Assembly: GCA_958009085.1 (NCBI GenBank) | Contig: OY253672.1 | Coordinates: forward strand, 1,054,001-1,118,000 | Reading direction: 5' to 3' | Origin: Protoeuglena noctilucae | Taxonomy: Eukaryota | DNA length: 64,000 bases | Shown here: positions 1 through 35,898 of the stretch, piece after piece | Numbering within the stretch: position 1 is the stretch's first letter | Layout of the letters: the number at the start of each line of letters is the position of its first letter | Notes under the pieces: generated by a model | The model's database searches: none | The model's input: only the letters and a program-made list of their open reading frames with translations | What the model was told of the DNA's origin: nothing | Made by a program: the position numbers and the translations under genes

Positions 1-2967
1 GGTGGTCATCTTCCGCGACGGCAAGTACCTGACCCTGAAGGAGGTCTTTGAGTCCTTGAAACTCAGCGCCTACGACCTCAACATCGATCTCATGGACATG
101 CACGCGGACAAGAGCACGTTCCATCGATTCGACAAGTTCAACTCCAAGTACAACCCCTGCGGCCAGTCGCGGCTGAGGGAGATCTTCATTAAGCAGGACA
201 ACCTGCTGCACGGGCGGTATTTGGCGGAGCTGACGAAGGAGATGATCCAGGACCTGGAGGCCTCCAAGTACCAGCACGCCGAGTACAGGTGTGATGATGG
301 GTGATAGATGGGTGATAGATGAGGGATGTGTGTGATAGAGGCTGTTTATGGATGGGCTTCCAAGTACCAGCACGCCGAGTACAGGTGGTGGAGGGGTGAC
401 GTGATTGTGAGTGCATGGGGTGGTGTGGGGGTATGAGAGGGGTGGCATGCGGATCTAACCCTGCCTCCTTGTCTCTTCTGTGCTCATCTGACTTGTAGGA
501 TCTCCATCTACTGTGTTTCACCATCTCTCCTGTGCCCCTTTCCCCCCCAGGACCTCCATCTGCGGTCCATTGTCTCTGTGTTTCACCGTTTCTCTTGTCC
601 CCATCACACCCCCAGGATCTCCATATACGGTCGCCAGCAGCGGGAGTGGGACACGCTGGCAGCCTGGGTGGTGCAGAACAAGCTCTACTCCAACAACGTG
701 GTGTGGATGATCCAGATACCCAGGTGAGACCTCAGATGGCATGCGAGGGGATGGCACGTTGCTGTACCTACGCACATCCCTGCAGCTCCCCTGGCCCCGT
801 CTGCACCCCTGCACCGCACGCTGCCCCTCCCTGCACCCTCCCTACCGACCCCGCTACTCCTCCCACCCCACCCACCCCCTCACCCCCCCAGGCTGTACAA
901 CGTGTACAAGGACCAGGGCCTGCTCGCCAACTTCCAGGAGATGCTCGACAACATCTTCGTGCCTCTCTTTGAAGTCACCGTGGACCCCAACAGCCACCCG
1001 CACCTCCACATGTTCTTGCGCATCGTGGTGGGGTTCGACATGGTGGACGACGAGGTGAGGGATATGTGGAATGGGTGTTGTTGGTATTACTATGGTGTGT
1101 GTGTGTGTGCATCGTGGTGGGGTTCGACATGGTCGACGACGAGGTGAGAGGTGGGGCGTGTACTGGTGGCTACCCTCACGTCCCCTTGCCGTCATCAACC
1201 CCCGCAGCCCCCCTCTCCTCCCCCCTCCCCAGTCCCACCATACTGCCCCCCTCACTGCACTGCCTCCCTCGCTCTCCCCCGCCCCCCCAGTCCCGCCCCG
1301 AGCGCCGCCCCAGCCCCAGCGTGCGCATGCCCGCGGAGTGGGACGGCATGCACAACCCGCCCCACGCCTACTACGCCTACTTCATCTACGCCAACCTCTA
1401 CACGCTCAACAAGATGAGGGAGGCCAGGGGGCTCAACACCTTCGCATTCCGGCCGCACTGGTGAGGCGGGGGGGGGCTGGGGAGAGGAGACGAGCCGTGA
1501 CTCCGCGATTTGGTACTAAGTAATTCTATGATTTTGGACAAACATGAGCACCTGCATTCCCACCCCCACCCTCACCCCCACCCTCACCCCCACCCTCACT
1601 GCCACCCTCACCCCCACCCCCACCCTCACCATCACCCACTACCATCCCTTCCCACCCCCTCCCCCCTCTCCCCACCCCCAGTGGTGAGGCGGGTGACGTG
1701 GATCACTTGGTGGCTGGCTTCATGCTCTGCCAGAACATCGCCCACGGCATCAACCTGCGCAAGTCGTCCAGTCTCCAGTACCTGTACTTCCTGGGGCAGA
1801 TCGGGCTGTGCATGAGCCCCCTCTCCAACAACTCCCTCTTCCTCGACTACCACCGGTGAGGGCAGTGGGTGTGGGTGTGGGTGTGTGAGTGCCTATGAGC
1901 GCAGCCCTTGTGGCGACCGTAACGAGGGGTGCGGGTATGGTGAGGGTAGCGCGAACTCCCCTCACCCTCCCCATTCACCCCCAGCAACCCCTTCCCCACC
2001 TGTCATGCTCTCACTCCCCATCTCTCTCCCCCTCTCCCCCCCAGCAACCCCTTCCCCACCTTCTTCGCCCGCGGCCTCCAAGTGTCGCTGTCCTCCGACG
2101 ACCCCGTCCAGATCCACCTCACCAAGGAGCCACTGGTCGAGGAGTACTCGGGTGAGCATGGGACAAGTAGTGCTATGATTAGCAATAGATGGCCATGCAT
2201 GTCCGTGTCCACCTCACCAAGGAGCCACTGGTGTAAGAGCACTTGGGTGAGCATGAGACATTCATGGTCGGTCATAACAAAATGTCATACCCGGTCTTGG
2301 TCATACCATGCGTGTCGGTGTGTGATGACGCACTGCCCTGCCCTCTCGCTGCCCTCACTTCCCCGCTCCTCTCCTCTCCTCTCCTCCCCACTACTCACCC
2401 ACACCACCCTCACCACCCTCACCATCCCTCTCCTCTTCCCCGCAGTGGCGGCGCAGGTGTGGAAGCTCTCAGCCGCGGACCTGTGCGAGATCGCCCGCAA
2501 CTCGGTGCTGCAGTCGGGGTTCCCCCACGAGTGCAAGATGCACTGGGTGGGGCAGGAGTACTGGAAGTCAGGTGAGAGTGGGTGGGGTGCTGAGTGATGC
2601 ACTGGGTGGGGCAGTGAGTGATGCAGTGGGTGGAGTGCGGGCTGGGGCAGTGGCAGCGAAAACCGGGTGGGAGTGTCAGCGGCAGCGCCGAGCACAGCAG
2701 CTATGAGCATGGTGACCGGCATCCGCCATCATGTCTCTACCTTTGCAACAATAACCGCCTCGATCTACGCCCCCTCGTCGCCTCGCAGGCCCCAGCGGCA
2801 ACGACATCCAGAAGACGAACGTGCCCGACGTGCGCCTGCGTTTCCGGCAGGACGTGTATGTGGAGGAGATGACGGTGGTGGTGGGGGGCGCGCATGCGTA
2901 CGCGCAGCGGCAGAGGGCCAAGTTAGAGAAGATGGACAGGGAGGCCAGGGAGCAGGAGGGGAAGTGA
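1..2967 (+). CDS. AMPD: AMP deaminase, 5'-partial, 7 exons in window (~1-288, 616-723, 892-1054, 1291-1460, 1682-1855, 2045-2151, 2446-2571, 2789-2967 incl. terminal exon)
   Basis: Spliced translation gives AMPD motifs [72 protein letters not shown] and NDIQKTNVP. Introns are GT-AG and the stop is TGA at 2965-2967. Confidence 0.97.
263..387 (+). repeat. 29-nt perfect direct repeat of exon end plus donor (263-291 = 359-387)
   Basis: TCCAAGTACCAGCACGCCGAGTACAGGTG occurs twice, 96 nt apart. Confidence 0.95.
1020..1148 (+). repeat. 40-nt direct repeat of exon end plus donor (1020-1059 vs 1109-1148, 1 mismatch)
   Basis: GCATCGTGGTGGGGTTCGACATGGT(G/C)GACGACGAGGTGAG occurs twice, 89 nt apart. Confidence 0.95.
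1559..1637 (+). repeat. Intronic hexamer microsatellite (CACCCC/CACCCT)n
   Basis: A tandem hexamer array is visible in the AMPD intron 1461-1681. Confidence 0.9.
2113..2260 (+). repeat. 53-nt degenerate direct repeat of exon end plus donor (2113-2165 vs 2208-2260)
   Basis: The first 25 nt are identical (TCCACCTCACCAAGGAGCCACTGGT), there are 6 mismatches overall, and both copies contain GGTGAGCATG. Confidence 0.9.
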
Positions 2968-3140
2968 GGGGAAGTGAGAGGGGAAGTGAGATGTGTGGGG
3001 TGGGTGGGGGGGAGCAGGATGGGGGGTGAGAGGGAGCAGGAGGGGAAGTGAGATGTGTGGGGTGGGTGGGGAGGGAGCAGGAGGGGTTGGTGAGAGGAGG
3101 GACGGTGGATGGGCGGGATGGGTGGGGGAGGGAGCAGGAG
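2947..3140 (+). repeat. G-rich degenerate tandem repeats spanning the AMPD stop codon and 3' flank
   Basis: Units AGGGAGCAGGAGGGGAAGTGAG and GAGATGTGTGGGGTGGGTGGG recur. Confidence 0.85.
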
Positions 3141-28127: not shown

Positions 28128-31100
28128 CTACCCGCCCACGCTGGGCCGCCCCTCCGCCGTGCTGGCGCCGCTGCTGTCCCCCTGCCCCTCGTCCGCCTGA
28201 GCTTCGGCCCCGCCCTCCTCGCCAAACATCCCCAGGTACAGAGAGTCCATCACAGATGCATCCGCGACCCCCGCCTTCACCGCAGCCTCCGCTGCGGCCC
28301 TGCGCATGGCCCCCGAGGCACCCCGGGACGTGCTGTCGATCAGAGCTCCGAAAGACGAGCCAGGCCGCTGCAGGAGCGTGTGGGGGTGGTCGAACTCCTT
28401 CAGGTTTCCATGGTCCAAAAGGAGAATCTTGTCGGAGTCGATGATGGTGTGCAGGCGGTGCGCGATGGTCAGGACCGTACAGTCCGCGAAAGCAGTGCTG
28501 CGAAGAAGGGGCGGCGAGTGTGGTCGGCGGGTGGGTGGGGGGCAGGATGCGGCGGTGCAGCAGCGGCAGTGAGGGCGGGTCATGGCATGTCTCTCTTATA
28601 CTGCATCCCTTGGCAGCAATCTAGTGAAGGCATCTCGTGGTGCAGTGCTTGAGGCATCTCAAGCCACACGCTGTTACGGGTCTCTCATACCATGTAATAT
28701 GCTCACCGGATGGTCTGCTGGATGACGGTGTCGGTGTTGCTGTCGACGCTCGACGTCGCCTCGTCCAGCAGCAGCACCCGGGAGTTGCGGAGGAGGGCGC
28801 GCGCCGTGCACAGCAGCTGCCGCTGCCCCACTGAGAGGTTGCCCCCAGCCTCGGCGATGCCCGCGTCCAGGCCCCCCGCCTCCTCCACCGCCCTGCGCAG
28901 GTGCACGCGGTCCAGGGACTGCAGAGGGAGACGCAGGCAGCAAGGGTGATGAGAATGCAAGGAAGCGAGGGCGAGGGGTGGGGCAATGGGGCACGTGGCA
29001 CGGCGAGCAGTGTGGGCGAGCAGTGAGGATGATGACTCTGTCGCGTCCAAAACAAGCAAGGTTCTGCCATGAGCCTTCTTTGTCGCACACAAAGCATGCC
29101 ATGCGATGTGCCCGTGTCGCACCTCCCAGATGCGTGCGTCATCTCCCACGACGTTGAAGGGGTCCAGGTTGCTGCGGATGGTCCCGGAGAAGATGACGGG
29201 GTCCTGGGGGACCTGCGGGTGCGTGGATGGTGAGGCGGATGTGAGGGCCGCTGTGTGCATGGGTGGCAAGCTGACGTGGGGTTGATGAAGAATAGGGTTG
29301 ATGGGCTCCGATGGTGGAGCACAAGTAGAGCTCGCAGTGCGCACAGGTGGCCAGACAGAGATGTTAGGGTAGCAGCGGTAGGCCATTCCATTACAACCAA
29401 TCGCTCCTTGGCAATCTCTGGCAACCAAGCGAGCGTGGGTCCTCTCCTCACCAGTGCCAGCTTGGACCTCAGGTCGAAGAGTCCGATGTGGGAGGTGTTG
29501 ATGCCATCGATGGCCACGTAACCGCCCGCCGGCTCCACGATCCGATACAGTGCCAACATGAGCGTGCTCTTGCCACACCCGGTGCGACCGCACACCCCGA
29601 CCTTCTCACGGGCCTCCACGGTGACTGCGGGAATAGTGCAGGAACAATATCAGGCCCAACAGCACACCCACAATTGCACCCGCACCCACACCCACACCCA
29701 CACCCACACCCACACCACAGACCCTCCCTCACCCGAGATGCCCTTGAGCACGAGGTCCAGCTCCGCCCGGTACCGCACTTGCAGGTCTTTAATCTCCACG
29801 CTGCCTTGCGCGGGCCACTCCGGGGGCGGGCGCTTGTCGTCAATGACTTCGGCGGCCTCGGTGGGCAGGGAGCGGTACTCTGTGATGCGCTCGACGGCGT
29901 TCATCGCCACCTCTAGCTCCGACACCTGTGTGGGGAGGGACGTGGGGTGGGGAGGTGTGGGTTGGTGAGACATTGGCGGGTGAGAGAGACGGGGTGGCTT
30001 GTGCAGGGTGGGCGGCCAGAAAACGGCGAGACATTTGGGCGGGTGAGGCAGGTGGGGCGACTGTTTCGTAGTGTGTGGGGTGGGCGGACAGAGACACAGG
30101 CGAGGTGAGAGAAATGTGAGCTGGTTTGCTGTTAAGCAGCTAGGTGGAGCTACCCAACAGCCACTACCACTTGTCCGGCCCGCTTGTCGCTAGCTAGTTT
30201 CGTCGTCACCTGTCGCACGAGCCAGTTCATGACGCCCGTGATGCTCATGGCGGAGGAGATGACCAGGCCGGCGAAACCGGAGTTGGAGCTCGTGATGACG
30301 GTCACGGCCAGCGCCGCCACCGTCGTCACCAAGTTGCCCTGGGGAGCGGAGCGAGGGGAGGTGCTCAGACGCACGCACGCGTCTGCTGGCTTGTCGACGC
30401 AGTGGGCCACTCATGCACGCGTCTGCTGGCCCATGCACAGTAGGCAACTAGTTCTACTGAGCACTGAGCTGAGCCTACGTCACAGCTGCGTCTGCATCCC
30501 ACGTCGCCCACCAAGCGAGCGCCTGCATGTTGCGCAATGCGTCTCGTCATCGCCGCCCACCCACCTGGGACTCGAGTCTCATGCTGAGCCACCGGTTAGT
30601 GGTCATTTGGGGCCAGAAGGCGCGGTTGGAGCGGTTGAGGAGCTCGATGTTGCGCGCGGTGAGGGGCTCCTGCTTCCGGAAGGCGCGGACGGTGGGCAGC
30701 CCCGCGACCATCTCTGAGAAACCGCTGAAGATGGGCGAGAGGTTGACCGAGTCGAGGCGCTTCAGCTCCCTCGACGTGGAGACGTAGATGCGCTGGGTGC
30801 GCCAGTAGATGACCCCGACGAAGAGGATGGCCACGGCGATGCCTGGGGTGACGATGACCATGAGCGCCACGGCAGACACCACGCTGATGAGCGTCGTGAG
30901 GGTGGAGGACACGATCTGAGACAGGTTGGTGTCGATGGCGTCCAGGTCGGAGGTGAAGCGGTTGAGGAGGCGGCCGAGGGGCTGGGAGTCGAAGAAACTC
31001 ATGGGCAGGCGCACCACGTGCTGGAGCAGGCTCAGGCAGAGGTTGCGGGAGGCGTTGTTGGACCCGACCACGATGAGGGCGGACCGCGCGGCCGTCAGCA

Positions 31101-34100
31101 CCACGCTGCCCAGGCCCAGGCCGGCGTAGACGCCCATGTAGTACTGAAAGGGAGCGAGGGGGGGCGGGGTCGCGTGTGGGGTGTTGGGGAGACCAAAGCC
31201 ATGTTCATATTCATGTTGGATAGGAACGAATTGATAATAGCTGTAACTGATACTAACTGTGTGTTTGCATCTTACACCCACAATCTCATGTGGGTGCTGT
31301 GCTCACCCACACGTCGATGTGCTTCCCCGCCGCCTCTGCGTTGCTCCAGATTGCGAGCCAGAACTGCTGGGCTGCCTGCAGGCCACGGTCTCCCAGGGCC
31401 AGCACCAGCGCACCGACGGGGATGAGGAACTGCGAGGGCAGGGGGGTCCAGGGGATGGCGAGCGAGCGGTGATGAGAGCGGCGCGAGCGTCCCATCTCAG
31501 CTTGTCACCCGACCCAACGTCACTGTCGCCATCCATGCGTCCCTGTCTCATCGTCAAGCCCACGCATCTTGACACCCTCACCCCTCCCCACCCTCTGCAC
31601 CCCTCCCACACCCCCACCGCTCCTCACTGCACCCCTCCCACGGCACCCAACCCCACGCCCCCACCCCCTCACCAGCGGCCCCCACGAGAGGAAGTATGCC
31701 GAGTAGACCTTCTTATCCACCGACCCCGTGGCTCGGTTCTCCGGTCGCGTCAGGTTGCCCCGGTCCGCGCCCCCCGTCTTGGCCAGCGTGCGACTGCGCT
31801 CCGCCCACGCGGCCTTCTCCCCCTTCCCGTCCCCCTTGCCCTCTCCCTTCCCGTCCGCACCCTTCTCGTCTTTCTTGTCCTCCTTCTTGTCCGCCATCTG
31901 GTACTGCGATGGCGAGCCACTCACGGGAACGTCAAACAACGGTGCTTTGCCCAAATCTCTGACTGCTGCTCATGGGTAGGGTTTATCAGGGAATCGGGCC
32001 GTAGCAGACGCCAACCACCGTTAACGCCTTGGTTCACGCACGGCCACACAAGCATGGTCACACACAAGCACAGTAACACCCAAGCATTGCCACCCAGACA
32101 TATGGTCACACACAGCCACCGTCACACATGTGCCCCCTCCACCCTTTCCCGCCTCTCCTCGCCTTGGTGAAGGACACCCCCTGCGCCTGCAGCTCCGCGA
32201 AGGTTCCCCAGTGCGCCACGCGCCCCCGCTCCATCACCACGATGCGGTCGGCCTGGGCCAGGAACTGCAGCTGGTGGGTCACCAGCACGCGCGTCTTGCC
32301 GCCCAGCTGCCCCGCGATGCACTGCGAGAAGAGGTGCTGCCCCACGTGCGCGTCCACGGCGCTCAAAGGGTCGTCAAGCAAGTAGATGTCGGCGTCGGCG
32401 TAAGTGGCCCGTGCCAGCGCCACGCGCTGCTTCTGGCCCCCGGAAAGGTTCACGCCCTTCTCGCCGATCTCCGTCTGGTCCGCCGCCGGCAGCTGGTCCA
32501 GGTCGGCGTCCAATGCGCAGACGGACACCACGCGGTTGTACCGGTCCTCGTCCATGGGGAGGCCCATCTGGGGGAGGTGAGGGGGGTAAAGGGGTCGCTG
32601 AGTGATGGGGGCGACTGCGGGAGTCAGGGACAAGAGGATCACTGATTGATGAAAGACGGATGGGAATTGAGAAGACGGTCTATGCACAGCCTCGTCACCG
32701 TGTGCTGTCAGACAAGATCCCATGCAAGCACAACACGTGATGGGTGTCACTGAGATGTCATCATGCACACGCGAACCGTGCCGCGTCTCACCAGGATGTT
32801 GTCTTGCAGCGTCGCGTTCTGGATCCACGTGTCCTGGCTCGTGTAGGCGATGGACCCAGCCATGAGCACCTCCCCTCCCTTCTGCGCCATCTCCCGCAGC
32901 AGCCCCATCAGCAGCGACGTCTTGCCGGACCCCACCTCCCCAATCACCATCAGCAGCTCGCCCCTCTGGATCTCCAAGTTCACGTGCTCCAGTTTGAATC
33001 CCTCCACCGGCTGCCCGTTGCTGCTGGAGCCGTTGCCGGACACCAGGCTCGCCATCTCCTTGCCCTGCAGGGAAACAACAGAGGATCGATTGCTAGCAAT
33101 AACAACATCTAAGTGGCAGTCACTTTGCCAGGACTTGTGGCTTCGACAGCCACGGGCGCCCACCTCTGTGAGCAAGCACAGCGTGTCTGCCCCGACAGTC
33201 GCCCCCACTTCCTGCCACACTCACCCCTTCCCCTCATCTCCCACTTCCCATCCCCGCGCTCACCCCCTTGCCCTTCCCCTTGGCCTGCTCCGGTGCGGCG
33301 GGCTTGGGCGGCGGCGTGGACCATTGAAAGGTCGCATCCTTAATGGCCACGACCACCCCCGGGGGCAGCCGCGAGGCGTCGTTGGGGATGGCGGCGGCCT
33401 CCTCCGAGTCGAAGAAGTCTTGGAGGCGCTTGAGGGAGACGTGGGCGTTGACGCACTGGTTGACGATCATGGGGAGCATCATGATGGGAAAACGCAGGAG
33501 GTTGAAGAGGGCCAGGGCCGGGAAGGCCACGGACGCTGGGGGAGGGAAGGGGTCAGGGGTGCTAAGAAGGTTTGTGTGAAGATGGTCAGCAGATACATGG
33601 GAAGGGGTGGCGGAGTGAGGGAGCGCGGACGTCAAGTGGTGTAGGAGCGTCAAGGTGCAGGCGGCGGTTTGCATGGCTGCCTGGCACGGCCAGCTCATGC
33701 CTCATCGCGCTCTCCCTGCCACGTCACATGCACCCTCACCGGTGAGTTGGTTGCCCATGCCGACGAAGGTGATGAAGGCGGTGAGGGAGACGAGGACGGG
33801 CGAGGAGAGGAAGATGACGATGTTGATCAGGCCAAGGAAGCCCGTGCGGCGGATGTACCGGAGCTCCTCCTCGCGAAGATCCTCGACACTGGCGGGGGCG
33901 TAGAGAAGGGGCGTGCGTCGGCATGCGCGTGTGTTGGGATGCGCTGGGCGGGTGGCATCGACAGCGCCAGTCGTCTGGCAGCAGGTGGTGACTCCTCGTC
34001 TGCTCCGTGTGCTTCCACAGAGCACCCAGAGAGCAACCATAACTCACCGCTTGAGGTACGGCTTCTCCCAGGCGTAGAGCTTGATGGCCTTGATGCCTTG

Positions 34101-35898
34101 CAGGACCTGCAGAAGCAATGCATCATCACACTCGGGAAGGAGCTGAGAAGGCTTTGCACTGGAGCGAGTGGTGTGTGAGCAGCAGGGAAAGGGTGTGCAT
34201 CGAAAAGAGGGCCACGCAGATGGGGATGCGTGTGAGCCGGTAAGACTCCATGTGCCTTGGCCCAGCCGCAGCCCTGGCCATTCCCAACGCCCCCGCATCA
34301 TCCAAGGCTCGCCGCGCCTCCTGCAACCCCACGGTGTCACCTCCGTGATCATCTTGACCCGCTTGTCGGTGCGCGCGATGAGCTCCTTCCGTGTCGCAAA
34401 GAGGAGGCGGCCGACGTAGGCGTTGACGGGGATGAAGGCGATGGTGGTGAGGAGGCCGACGAGCGCGGGCACGGGCTTGAGGATGCGCATCAGGAGCGCG
34501 ATGGTGATCAGCACCTGCGGCGACGACCAAGCAAATGGGACGTGTGAGAGCGTCGCGTGCGAGCGGGACGGGTCCCTGTCTTTCATTGTCTCTGTCGGGG
34601 CTTTGCATGCGGGTTCCCTTTCTAGCAACCAATGTCAGGACCCCTCCCAAACACCCCAGCGCCCCTCTGCCCCTCCCACGCAACCCAGCGCCCCTCGTAA
34701 GCAACCCAGCGCATCTCCCACGCAACCCCGCGCCCCTCACCTGCTCTGGGGCGGACCACAGCTGGTGGAGGAACTGCGCCGTCTCCCAGATGCGTTTGCC
34801 GTCGTTGGACTGGAAGTTGATGATCTTGCCGAGGCCCAGCTCGCCGCGCACGGCCCCGGAGATGAGCAGGGACTTGCGGAAGATCATGTCGATGACGCCC
34901 GTCTTGAGCCCCATGCTCACGCGGAAGGCCCGGTGGAAGTACAGGTTGCTGTACACGATGCGGGCCTGCTCCAGCACGGCCATGAGCACAATCATCACGG
35001 CGGTATACCAGGTGGGTCCCCCTTTCTGGATATTCGCAAGCAGGTACTGCAGGATGATGGGGCCCGTGACCTGGAGGCCGTCCTGGATCGCCTGTGAGTG
35101 GGAGAGACGGATGAGAGAGGGACATGAGAACAACACGCCCTCAGCCACATCCTACGTTCCATCCCATCTCCCCAGCCCGTCACCTTGTATACGCCCGCGA
35201 TGAGGAAGGGCCGGCGGAAGGCGTGCCAGAGGGACGTTAAGACGACGCCGCGCGGGTGCTCGGCGGTCGTCGTGCCCCGGAGCGCGTCCTGCACTCTGCC
35301 GGTGAGCAGCTCGGCCCGGTCCTGGTCGTTCACGTCCGGCAAATCCTCCATGATGAGGGGCTGCACGTATCCCAGGTGCATGAGCGGGGACAAGTACTCG
35401 TACGTGATACGGGAAAAAAGGTTCGCTTCTTCCTCAGGCTGCCACGTTCGCCGCCCAGCCCGCGGGTGCTGCTTCGGCGTGGGCATGAAGAGCCGCGACA
35501 GCAGCGAGCGACCCGGGGAGGGCTTGATGGTGAATAGAGCGTCCTGGCCCTGCTCCACATCTTCCAGAGCCTGCGGGAGCGCAACGAGAAGGGCATGCTG
35601 GTGTATATCTCCCGAGCCTGCGCCGCAAGCGTGGGAACAGGGCATCCTGGCCCCGCCACAGATCTCCCAGGGCCTGCGCGAGCCCAGCGAGGGGAGATTC
35701 TCGCAGAGAACACGCTGTGCGAACGGGCCGCCACGAAGAGTCGGGGGCGGCCGCGGGTCGCCCCTTACATCAGAGCCACAAGACGGCCCCGTCCGCTGGA
35801 GCAGCGGGGCGCGGCTCCGACTGGCGGATCGACTGCCTTTATCAATACCCACCATACGCGCCCCAAGTTCGCACCTGAAAGTTGCCTCGTTTGTCCAT
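28128..35898 (-). CDS. ABCC/MRP-type full-size ABC transporter (short form, no TMD0), many exons
   Basis: NBD1 has [16 protein letters not shown] and [14 protein letters not shown]2 has [23 protein letters not shown] and TIAHRL. TMD motifs include [14 protein letters not shown] and RELKRLDS. The start is inferred from a short first exon MDKRGNFQ. Confidence 0.95.
29677..29715 (-). repeat. Intronic (GGGTGT)n microsatellite just downstream of a donor site in the ABCC gene
   Basis: The plus strand shows tandem CACCCA units. Confidence 0.85.

What the first reader, a model, noticed from the sequence alone, without database searches (positions are those of the whole stretch)
263..2633. AMPD introns carry 'echo' copies of the preceding exon end, usually with the donor site
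Seen: four introns repeat the end of the upstream exon a short way inside the intron. The pairs are 263-291/359-387 (29/29 nt, 96 nt apart), 1020-1059/1109-1148 (39/40, 89 nt apart, the one difference being a synonymous GTG/GTC), 2113-2165/2208-2260 (47/53, 95 nt apart) and 2537-2555/2596-2614 (19/19, 59 nt apart, without the donor; fainter third copy at 2620-2633). Three echoes retain an intact GT donor, and their spacings are strikingly similar. The sequence between copies is not exon-like, so this is not simple whole-exon duplication. Inference: a recurrent process copies or homogenises sequence at splice junctions, such as short-range duplication, templated repair or gene conversion. The result would be decoy or alternative donors that could gate expression or seed intron sliding. 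I am not aware of a named mechanism for this.
Basis: partly seen in the sequence, partly recalled or inferred. Interest (0 to 1): 0.72.

Follow-up and report, generated by a model that had tools for sequence, protein, structure and literature searches.

The report
Exon-end echoes inside algal introns
In a marine green alga, about one intron in twenty holds a short second copy of the neighbouring exon end with its splice site, and these copies look as if they were working gene pieces picked up from different gene versions during DNA exchange, which would leave a readable record of past mixing inside introns.

Summary
All four repeat pairs are real and are spanned without differences by marine metagenome contigs; RNA contigs splice at the first donor. 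The pattern is genome-wide: 35 of 729 introns in random stretches, 0 in cross-gene controls. It also occurs at acceptors and stop codons. Each echo is a ~90-nt tandem duplication across the junction, a known kind (human F7 'pseudo-donor' minisatellite), and intron-internal repeats are as common (64 vs 65 of 712). What is unexpected: echo and exon differ at 18% of fourfold sites but 4.6% of zero-fold sites (ratio 3.9, bootstrap 2.9-5.3; neutral decay allows about 2), while the duplicated intron halves are 32% diverged even when the echo has no zero-fold change. So echoes evolved as coding exon ends for much of their history. Best reading (0.5): capture or refresh from diverged haplotypes by imprecise recombination anchored in the conserved exon. 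Against it: no allelic diversity seen today. Decoy-donor regulation is unsupported. The scan noted a similar echo pattern in one sea-urchin gene.

The parts
1..2967 (+). 3' half of an AMP deaminase gene; exons 2-288, 616-723, 892-1054, 1291-1460, 1682-1855, 2045-2151, 2446-2571, 2789-2967 (the gene begins upstream of the window)
   Evidence: open frame through the joined exons; Pfam AMP_deaminase E 2.5e-47; five of the seven in-window junctions listed as RNA joints; single copy in the genome
259..291 (+). source of donor echo 1 (exon end plus GTG; true donor at 289)
   Evidence: RNA joint skips 327 nt
355..387 (+). donor echo 1, 32/33, GT at 385
487..567 (+). acceptor echoes in intron 289-615: copy 511-567 matches 576-632 (46/57, echo AG ends at 550); an older remnant has its AG ending at 498
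1020..1059 (+). source of donor echo 2 (true donor at 1055); this intron position is shared with relative L087, which has no echo there
1109..1148 (+). donor echo 2, 39/40, one synonymous difference, GT at 1144
1978..2001 (+). acceptor echo, 24/24 with 2038-2061; echo AG ends at 1984, true AG ends at 2044
   Evidence: the RNA piece of the following exon is 107 nt, which fits the true acceptor
2113..2165 (+). source of donor echo 3 (true donor at 2152)
2208..2260 (+). donor echo 3, 47/53, GT at 2247; decayed (carries a stop in the exon frame)
   Evidence: read from the sequence
2537..2555 (+). exon source of echo 4 (ends 17 nt before the donor at 2572)
2579..2638 (+). echo 4 (2596-2614, 19/19) inside a 24-nt minisatellite of 2.5 units; no donor
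2947..3098 (+). stop-codon echo: coding end plus TGA repeated in the 3' UTR with period about 62 (2947-2968/3031-3052 22/22; 2948-3009/3010-3071 54/62)

Best explanation
Echoes are ~60-120-nt tandem duplications that span an exon boundary. SHOWN: they survive because the outermost splice site is still used, so the mRNA is unchanged. SHOWN: the exon-derived part carries a protein-coding selection signature, and the intron-derived part is already about 30% diverged in the least decayed echoes. INFERRED: the copy did not come from the sister chromatid but from a diverged working version of the same gene (another haplotype or lineage met in a zygote or hybrid; an ancient homeolog is a variant). 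Introns of such versions are too different to pair, so repair or crossover can anchor only in the exon. A break in the intron is repaired by copying the partner's intron and overshooting 15-50 nt into its exon; the join to the retained first part of the intron is made by end-joining. This gives exon | own intron start | partner exon end + splice site | partner intron. Later unequal exchanges between a real exon end and an existing echo refresh it or build arrays with shared breakpoints but diverged spacers. After capture the echo decays neutrally. The echoes would be recombination scars with no function of their own.
For: Fourfold sites differ 65/360 (18.1%) and zero-fold sites 66/1443 (4.6%), ratio 3.95, P(ratio<=2) 8e-5. 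The ratio is 6.8 in 15 echoes from held-out stretches and holds for donors and acceptors, and for non-CpG G/C sites (28/219 vs 16/496). Cluster bootstrap over 39 gene clusters gives 2.9-5.3; random loci alone 3.97; wrong-frame controls 0.57 and 0.82. Spacers: 32% aligned mismatch (unrelated 41%), 0 of 73 near-identical; the 26 echoes with no zero-fold change have the same 32%; no correlation with echo decay. Identity falls from about 0.9 to about 0.45 right after donor +5. Sequence after donor echoes has intron-start composition (G 0.48) and sequence before acceptor echoes has intron-end composition (C 0.54). Simulation: plain duplication gives synonymous fraction 0.41 and spacer score 0.65; pre-diverged alleles give 0.56 and 0.36; observed 0.53-0.56 and 0.345. 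In 14 arrays, differences at degenerate sites are private to single copies (24/110 vs 24/210 zero-fold, P 0.02); only 3 are shared by all copies against about 11 expected if the exon alone had drifted (P 0.006). Stop-codon echoes show the same pattern without splicing. Mnd1 and two Spo11-type domains are in the genome.
Against: No diverged haplotype was seen: contigs from three metagenome samples match the 7-kb AMPD locus with no listed differences in the long pieces (contigs drop rare variants). AMPD has no second copy in the genome. Several arrays share one breakpoint, so single captures are not enough and the extra refresh step must be assumed. The allele simulations keep the echo donor in 81-88% of cases, against 50 of 50 or 63 of 66 observed. 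The simulated split depth was chosen to fit. Sister-type duplicates with identical spacers exist (L038 43/43, L022 158/165). The breakpoint mechanism itself was not tested. Gene models are my own HMM, checked only on AMPD, which also seeded its training.
Confidence: 0.5

Rival explanations
1. Plain neutral tandem duplication from the sister chromatid. The low-complexity spacers then scramble much faster than exon-like sequence, and only the exon-like part stays recognisable.
For: Intron-internal repeats occur in 64 of 712 introns (null 3), so duplication is common. Young identical duplicates exist. A five- to eightfold spacer rate reproduces the wall and the spacer score in simulation. Echoes do decay: 7 of 118 copies have stops, and there are 9 frameshift gaps.
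Against: Gives synonymous fraction 0.41-0.45 and donor survival 0.69-0.83 at every spacer rate tried with normal exon drift. It needs a second ad hoc effect, exon synonymous sites 2.5 times faster than the same sequence in the intron, to reach 0.53-0.56. Many diverged spacers are complex sequence, not microsatellite. Spacer divergence does not track echo decay.
Confidence: 0.2
2. The echoes are old duplicates kept by selection as decoy, backup or recursive splice sites.
For: Donor dinucleotide intact in 50 of 50 and 63 of 66, higher than in any neutral simulation. Full intronic splice context is present. Exon ends in AG in 26 of 42 echo donors vs 114 of 245 others, P 0.07.
Against: No RNA joint at an echo site in one metatranscriptome (weak, contigs only). 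Acceptor AG kept in only 23 of 29. Stop-codon echoes exist. No frame preference. Selection at the nucleotide level predicts synonymous differences shared by all copies of an array; 3 seen vs about 11. 17 of 83 donor-side copies stop short of the junction.
Confidence: 0.12
3. Old duplicates whose exon-like part is repeatedly overwritten by the neighbouring exon of the same chromosome (gene conversion) or by its mRNA.
For: Would explain arrays with shared breakpoints, identical exon parts and diverged spacers (three 18-20-nt copies with no mismatch in one intron).
Against: Overwriting from the same exon erases synonymous and non-synonymous differences alike, so the ratio should be at most about 2 (inference); 3.9 is seen. 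An mRNA template would not restore the GT or AG.
Confidence: 0.12
4. Short templated insertion (polymerase-theta type) of only the exon end plus splice site into the middle of the intron.
For: About two thirds of spacer pairs are not individually distinguishable from unrelated introns (25 of 73 significant).
Against: Sequence after the echo has intron-start composition, not mid-intron (G 0.48 vs 0.31). The remainder after the last donor echo (median 169 nt) equals a whole neighbouring intron (177 nt). No synonymous bias is predicted.
Confidence: 0.06

Closest known systems
Junction-spanning minisatellites with 5' pseudo-sites: human F7 IVS7 (37 bp), and CBS, LAMIN B2, PDGF and 6-16 as cited there (PMC1557585; abstract and passages read)
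   Same: The first unit spans the exon-intron border, the donor is repeated downstream, and the most upstream donor is used.
   Different: There: a few single loci, 5-25 monomers, and only 4 exon bases in the F7 unit. Here: about 5% of all introns, mostly one extra copy, 15-50 exon bases, also at acceptors and stop codons, intron part about 68% and exon part about 94% identical, with a coding-selection signature.
Repair-mediated duplication by SDSA (PMC2671141; abstract and passages read)
   Same: Short (50 bp and up) closely linked duplications attributed to break repair, sometimes including splice sites; the authors suggest templates on the homologous chromosome.
   Different: Their copies are mostly over 90% identical and on average 1.2 kb apart; only 4 of 824 donors are partial exon/intron. 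Here the copies are tandem, anchored on the junction, and split into a conserved and a diverged half.
Intron gain by tandem genomic duplication (PMC4974935, PMC3265369; search listings and abstract starts only; geometry recalled) and internal tandem repeats at exon-intron boundaries (PMC2812944, passages)
   Same: Tandem duplication involving splice-site sequence.
   Different: That model creates a new intron from duplicated exon sequence. Here the intron pre-exists (the intron at 1055 is shared with relative L087) and the exon-end copy sits in the donor-side half, followed by its own donor.
Direct repeats near intron borders (PMC11782384; abstract and Methods read)
   Same: Direct repeats close to splice sites.
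   Different: That study compares the 5' border with the 3' border (4-30 bp, mean 11) as insertion scars. Echoes repeat one border within the same half of the intron.

Membership tests
F7-type junction-spanning minisatellite (5' pseudo-sites) | First repeat unit spans the exon-intron boundary and repeats the splice site inside the intron | tested here: met
   63 of 66 junction-reaching donor copies keep the donor dinucleotide; 23 of 29 acceptor copies keep AG
F7-type junction-spanning minisatellite (5' pseudo-sites) | Authentic (most upstream) donor is the one used | tested here: met
   RNA joints skip 327, 236 and 294 nt from the first donors in AMPD; minor use of echo donors cannot be excluded from contigs
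F7-type junction-spanning minisatellite (5' pseudo-sites) | Array of many similar monomers over the whole unit | tested here: not met
   84 of 98 intron sides have one echo; spacers 32% mismatched, 0 of 73 near-identical; one array (L022) does fit
F7-type junction-spanning minisatellite (5' pseudo-sites) | Variable copy number among individuals | tested here: inconclusive
   no length difference in three metagenome samples at AMPD; contigs drop rare variants
Repair-mediated duplication (SDSA) | Duplicon of about 50-600 bp close to its source | tested here: met
   unit median 90 nt, 10-90% range 57-118
Repair-mediated duplication (SDSA) | Microhomology, filler or deletion at breakpoints relative to the empty site | not testable with these tools
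   no strain with the pre-duplication state was found
Repair-mediated duplication (SDSA) | Young copies near-identical to the source along their whole length | tested here: not met
   26 echoes with no zero-fold change still have 32% spacer mismatch
Intron gain by tandem genomic duplication | The intron itself is duplicated exon sequence and is new (geometry recalled) | tested here: not met
   the echo sits inside an intron with its own intronic ends; the intron at 1055 is shared with relative L087
Recursive-splicing ratchet points (AG|GT; definition recalled) | AG immediately before the internal donor | tested here: inconclusive
   26 of 42 vs 114 of 245, P 0.07; 16 echo donors lack it
Introner / transposon-derived introns | Families of similar introns at unrelated sites | tested here: not met
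   3 cross-intron matches in 712 random pairings; a one-partner-each test, not an all-against-all search

The most novel reading that the evidence does not exclude
Introns of this alga are an archive of past genetic exchange. Where haplotypes differ too much to pair in introns, recombination anchors in exons and leaves, at thousands of junctions genome-wide (extrapolated from 35 of 729), a captured exon end, splice site and intron piece from another lineage. One haploid genome would then hold fragments of several lost or unsampled alleles per gene, and intron lengthening would be driven by recombination between diverged lineages.
Probability: 0.4. Interest if true: 0.8.

Novelty: new variant of a known kind. 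Interest (0 to 1): 0.64.

Why it matters
The duplications alone are ordinary. The signature is not: intronic copies that differ from their exon mainly at silent sites, with an identity wall at the splice site, are not what neutral duplication predicts. If they are captured alleles, they give a single-genome test for cryptic sex or hybridisation in picoplankton and a direct mechanism for local intron growth. They are also a natural set of dozens (genome-wide probably over a thousand, extrapolated) of near-identical competing splice-site pairs for testing how the first donor and last acceptor are chosen. The test used here (fourfold against zero-fold divergence between exon ends and intronic copies) can be run on any annotated genome.

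Tried and rejected
Assembly artefact: rejected. Chance: rejected (0 of 2532 cross-gene trials). Donor-specific phenomenon: rejected (acceptor and stop-codon echoes; 2 of 184 predicted stops vs null 0, 0 of 191 starts). In-frame alternative donors: rejected. Paralog as template: not supported for AMPD (one match); not tested for other genes. CpG hypermutation as the source of the synonymous excess: rejected (ratio holds at non-CpG sites). Purifying selection on echoes through conversion load: considered and set aside on paper, since it needs implausibly large N times mutation rate (inference). A gradient of decay away from the junction and with rank in arrays was weak and open to alignment-end bias; not used. 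The '50 of 50 donors intact' figure is softened by the gapped search (53 of 58, 63 of 66). The metagenome pattern scan found one distant relative (L087) and one chance hit (L088), no sister strain. Ten literature searches returned no listing that describes a genome-wide exon-end echo with synonymous bias. The library lacks most subscription journals, most hits were judged from titles and abstract starts, and no supplements were opened. The pedinophyte genome preprint (10.1101/2021.10.04.463119; passages) mentions nuclear introns in none of the passages found; its supplements are closed.

Full report
Observation. The four pairs are in the sequence exactly as reported. They lie in the 3' half of an AMP deaminase gene whose eight in-window exons give one open frame (Pfam). 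The window is G000:C5:1054001-1118000 of a 26.3-Mb, 27-contig genome. The exon's best named match is Pedinophyceae sp. YPF-701 (88%), with unnamed proteins at 91% and other chlorophytes at about 85% or less, so this is a green alga, probably of or near that class (inference from one exon).

Real DNA, first donor used. I laid 4 of 23 listed runs on the 7-kb gene. Contigs of metagenome X5 span every intronic echo with no other letters; X6 and X7 span part of them. These are three samples of one study. Metatranscriptome X11 joins at the first donor in all three donor-echo introns (skips of 327, 236, 294 nt) and lists no joint at an echo. All are contigs, so rare isoforms and rare alleles are invisible.

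Genome-wide test. I examined 1,044 kb: 59 evenly placed 10-kb stretches chosen blind, the window with 100 kb of flank, and 290 kb chosen next to echo-rich stretches (not used for frequency). A self-trained gene finder, seeded on AMPD and a second window gene, called 1363 introns; 1266 were tested (60-800 nt, no N, flanking exons 50 nt or more, the mis-called AMPD stop left out). Local alignment of the 50 exon bases next to each junction against its intron found 118 copies on 98 of 2532 intron sides in 88 introns, with no hand removal. Controls: 0 of 2532 against introns of other genes; 3 of 1971 for exon segments 80-130 nt from the junction. Blind stretches: 35 of 729 introns. By length in the whole sample: 0 of 259 under 100 nt, 16 of 702 at 100-200, 66 of 277 at 200-400, 6 of 28 above. 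Echoes cluster in stretches with longer, AT-richer introns (echo-free neighbours 177 nt, GC 0.58; others 127 nt, GC 0.65). In the 164 kb around the window only AMPD has them (5 of 172). An earlier ungapped search (105 hits; 8 dropped by rule, 6 more by eye as low-complexity) gave the positional profiles. The printed outputs were cut; counts come from the saved tables.

The ordinary part. Each echo is a tandem duplication across the boundary, unit median 90 nt. What follows a donor echo looks like an intron start, and what precedes an acceptor echo looks like an intron end. The rest of the intron after the last donor echo is as long as a whole neighbouring intron, and 25 of 73 spacer pairs are significantly similar. 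Repeats wholly inside introns are equally common (64 vs 65 of 712, null 3). A duplication that takes exon sequence can survive only if it spans the junction and leaves the outer splice site in use (inference). This architecture is known from single human loci: the F7 intron 7 minisatellite repeats the donor and only the most upstream site is used (PMC1557585).

The unexpected part. First, asymmetry: 18-mers on the exon side of a junction recur in the intron at 16/18 or better in 37 donors and 19 acceptors, 18-mers on the intron side in 6 and 5 (712 introns, null under 1). Identity drops from about 0.9 to about 0.45 just after donor +5. Spacers are 32% mismatched after alignment (unrelated 41%), none of 73 is near-identical, and the 26 echoes without a zero-fold change are no better. 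Second, a coding signature: echo and exon differ at 65 of 360 fourfold and 66 of 1443 zero-fold sites, ratio 3.95. A neutral echo plus an exon drifting at silent sites allows about 2 (inference; simulation). The ratio holds in held-out stretches, at donors and acceptors, outside CpG, in blind stretches alone, and under a bootstrap over 39 clusters (2.9-5.3); it vanishes in wrong frames. An earlier count gave weaker but consistent P values (0.001 to 0.05 as edges were trimmed). AMPD alone has too few sites to show it (3/17 vs 2/76). Third, in arrays the silent differences belong to single copies rather than to the exon lineage. Echoes also decay: 7 of 118 have stops, and there are 9 frameshift gaps.

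Mechanism. Simulations run through the same detector reject plain duplication on synonymous fraction, wall position and spacer identity. Fast-mutating spacers fix the wall but not the synonymous fraction. Duplication from an allele that had already diverged by about 0.2 per lineage in introns fits exon identity, synonymous fraction and spacer score (parameters fitted, donors only). I therefore favour capture from a diverged working copy: repair or crossover can pair only in exons, overshoots the junction by 15-50 nt, and is closed by end-joining. Repair-mediated duplication by SDSA is a described process (PMC2671141); the diverged-template version is my inference. Shared breakpoints in several arrays require a further step, unequal exchange between a real exon end and an existing echo. 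The genome has Mnd1 and two Spo11-type domains, so meiosis is possible, not shown.

Against this reading. No diverged haplotype is visible today at AMPD, and none turned up in the one metagenome pattern scan. No model reproduced the near-complete survival of echo donors (50 of 50, or 63 of 66, vs 69-89% simulated), which leaves room for selection on them. Breakpoint signatures could not be tested. Gene models are unverified outside AMPD, although frame errors would weaken the signal, not create it.

Function. Nothing here supports regulation by decoy donors: the first donor is used, spacings ignore frame and mostly contain stops, and stop-codon echoes show the same pattern. Low-level use is untested.

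Novelty and verdict. The scan's own notes hold one similar case, a sea-urchin gene filed under the F7 type (e1-7787398; not checked here), and none for this genome. Ten literature searches showed no genome-wide account with this signature, within the limits given under Tried and rejected. Verdict: a real, genome-wide new variant of a known kind of junction-spanning duplication, with a well-supported and unexplained coding-selection signature; mechanism about even odds; interest 0.64.

Noticed in passing
L087:2335-4047 vs L031:1394-6467: A relative's AMPD has 3 introns (read by eye) against 13 predicted here; only the one at window 1055 is shared. This points to heavy intron gain or loss between the lineages.
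   Followed up: partly
genome sample; L031:3273-3480: GC-AG introns look frequent: 126 of 913 predicted donors start GCGAG or GCAAG. One in AMPD matches an RNA joint of 208 nt.
   Followed up: no
window 289-2788 and genome sample: Long introns have G/T-rich first halves and C-rich last halves (G 0.47 at the start, C 0.53 at the end in 178 echo-free long introns).
   Followed up: partly
L031:1-7000: No sequence differences in the long contig pieces of three metagenome samples over the AMPD locus, introns included: very low present diversity or one dominant clone.
   Followed up: partly
window 28128-35381 (-): A multi-exon gene that reads like an ABCC/MRP transporter (label recalled from motifs, not tested) has about 16 long introns and no echo.
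   Followed up: no
L074:4919-5277 (-): In a kinesin-like gene (label recalled), two acceptor echoes encode Thr where the exon has Met; Thr is the residue I recall as the family consensus, so the echoes may keep an older state.
   Followed up: no
L018:4895-5018 (-), and two sites: Coding ends with their stop codon are echoed in 3' UTRs (36/41 in L018; 2 of 184 predicted stops).
   Followed up: partly
L014:2169 and L014:9865: A coding repeat with period about 114 nt recurs 7.7 kb away, suggesting tandem paralogs of a repeat protein.
   Followed up: no
G000:C22:460033, C4:561021, C7:290809: Mnd1 and two TP6A_N (Spo11-type) matches above cut-off.
   Followed up: partly
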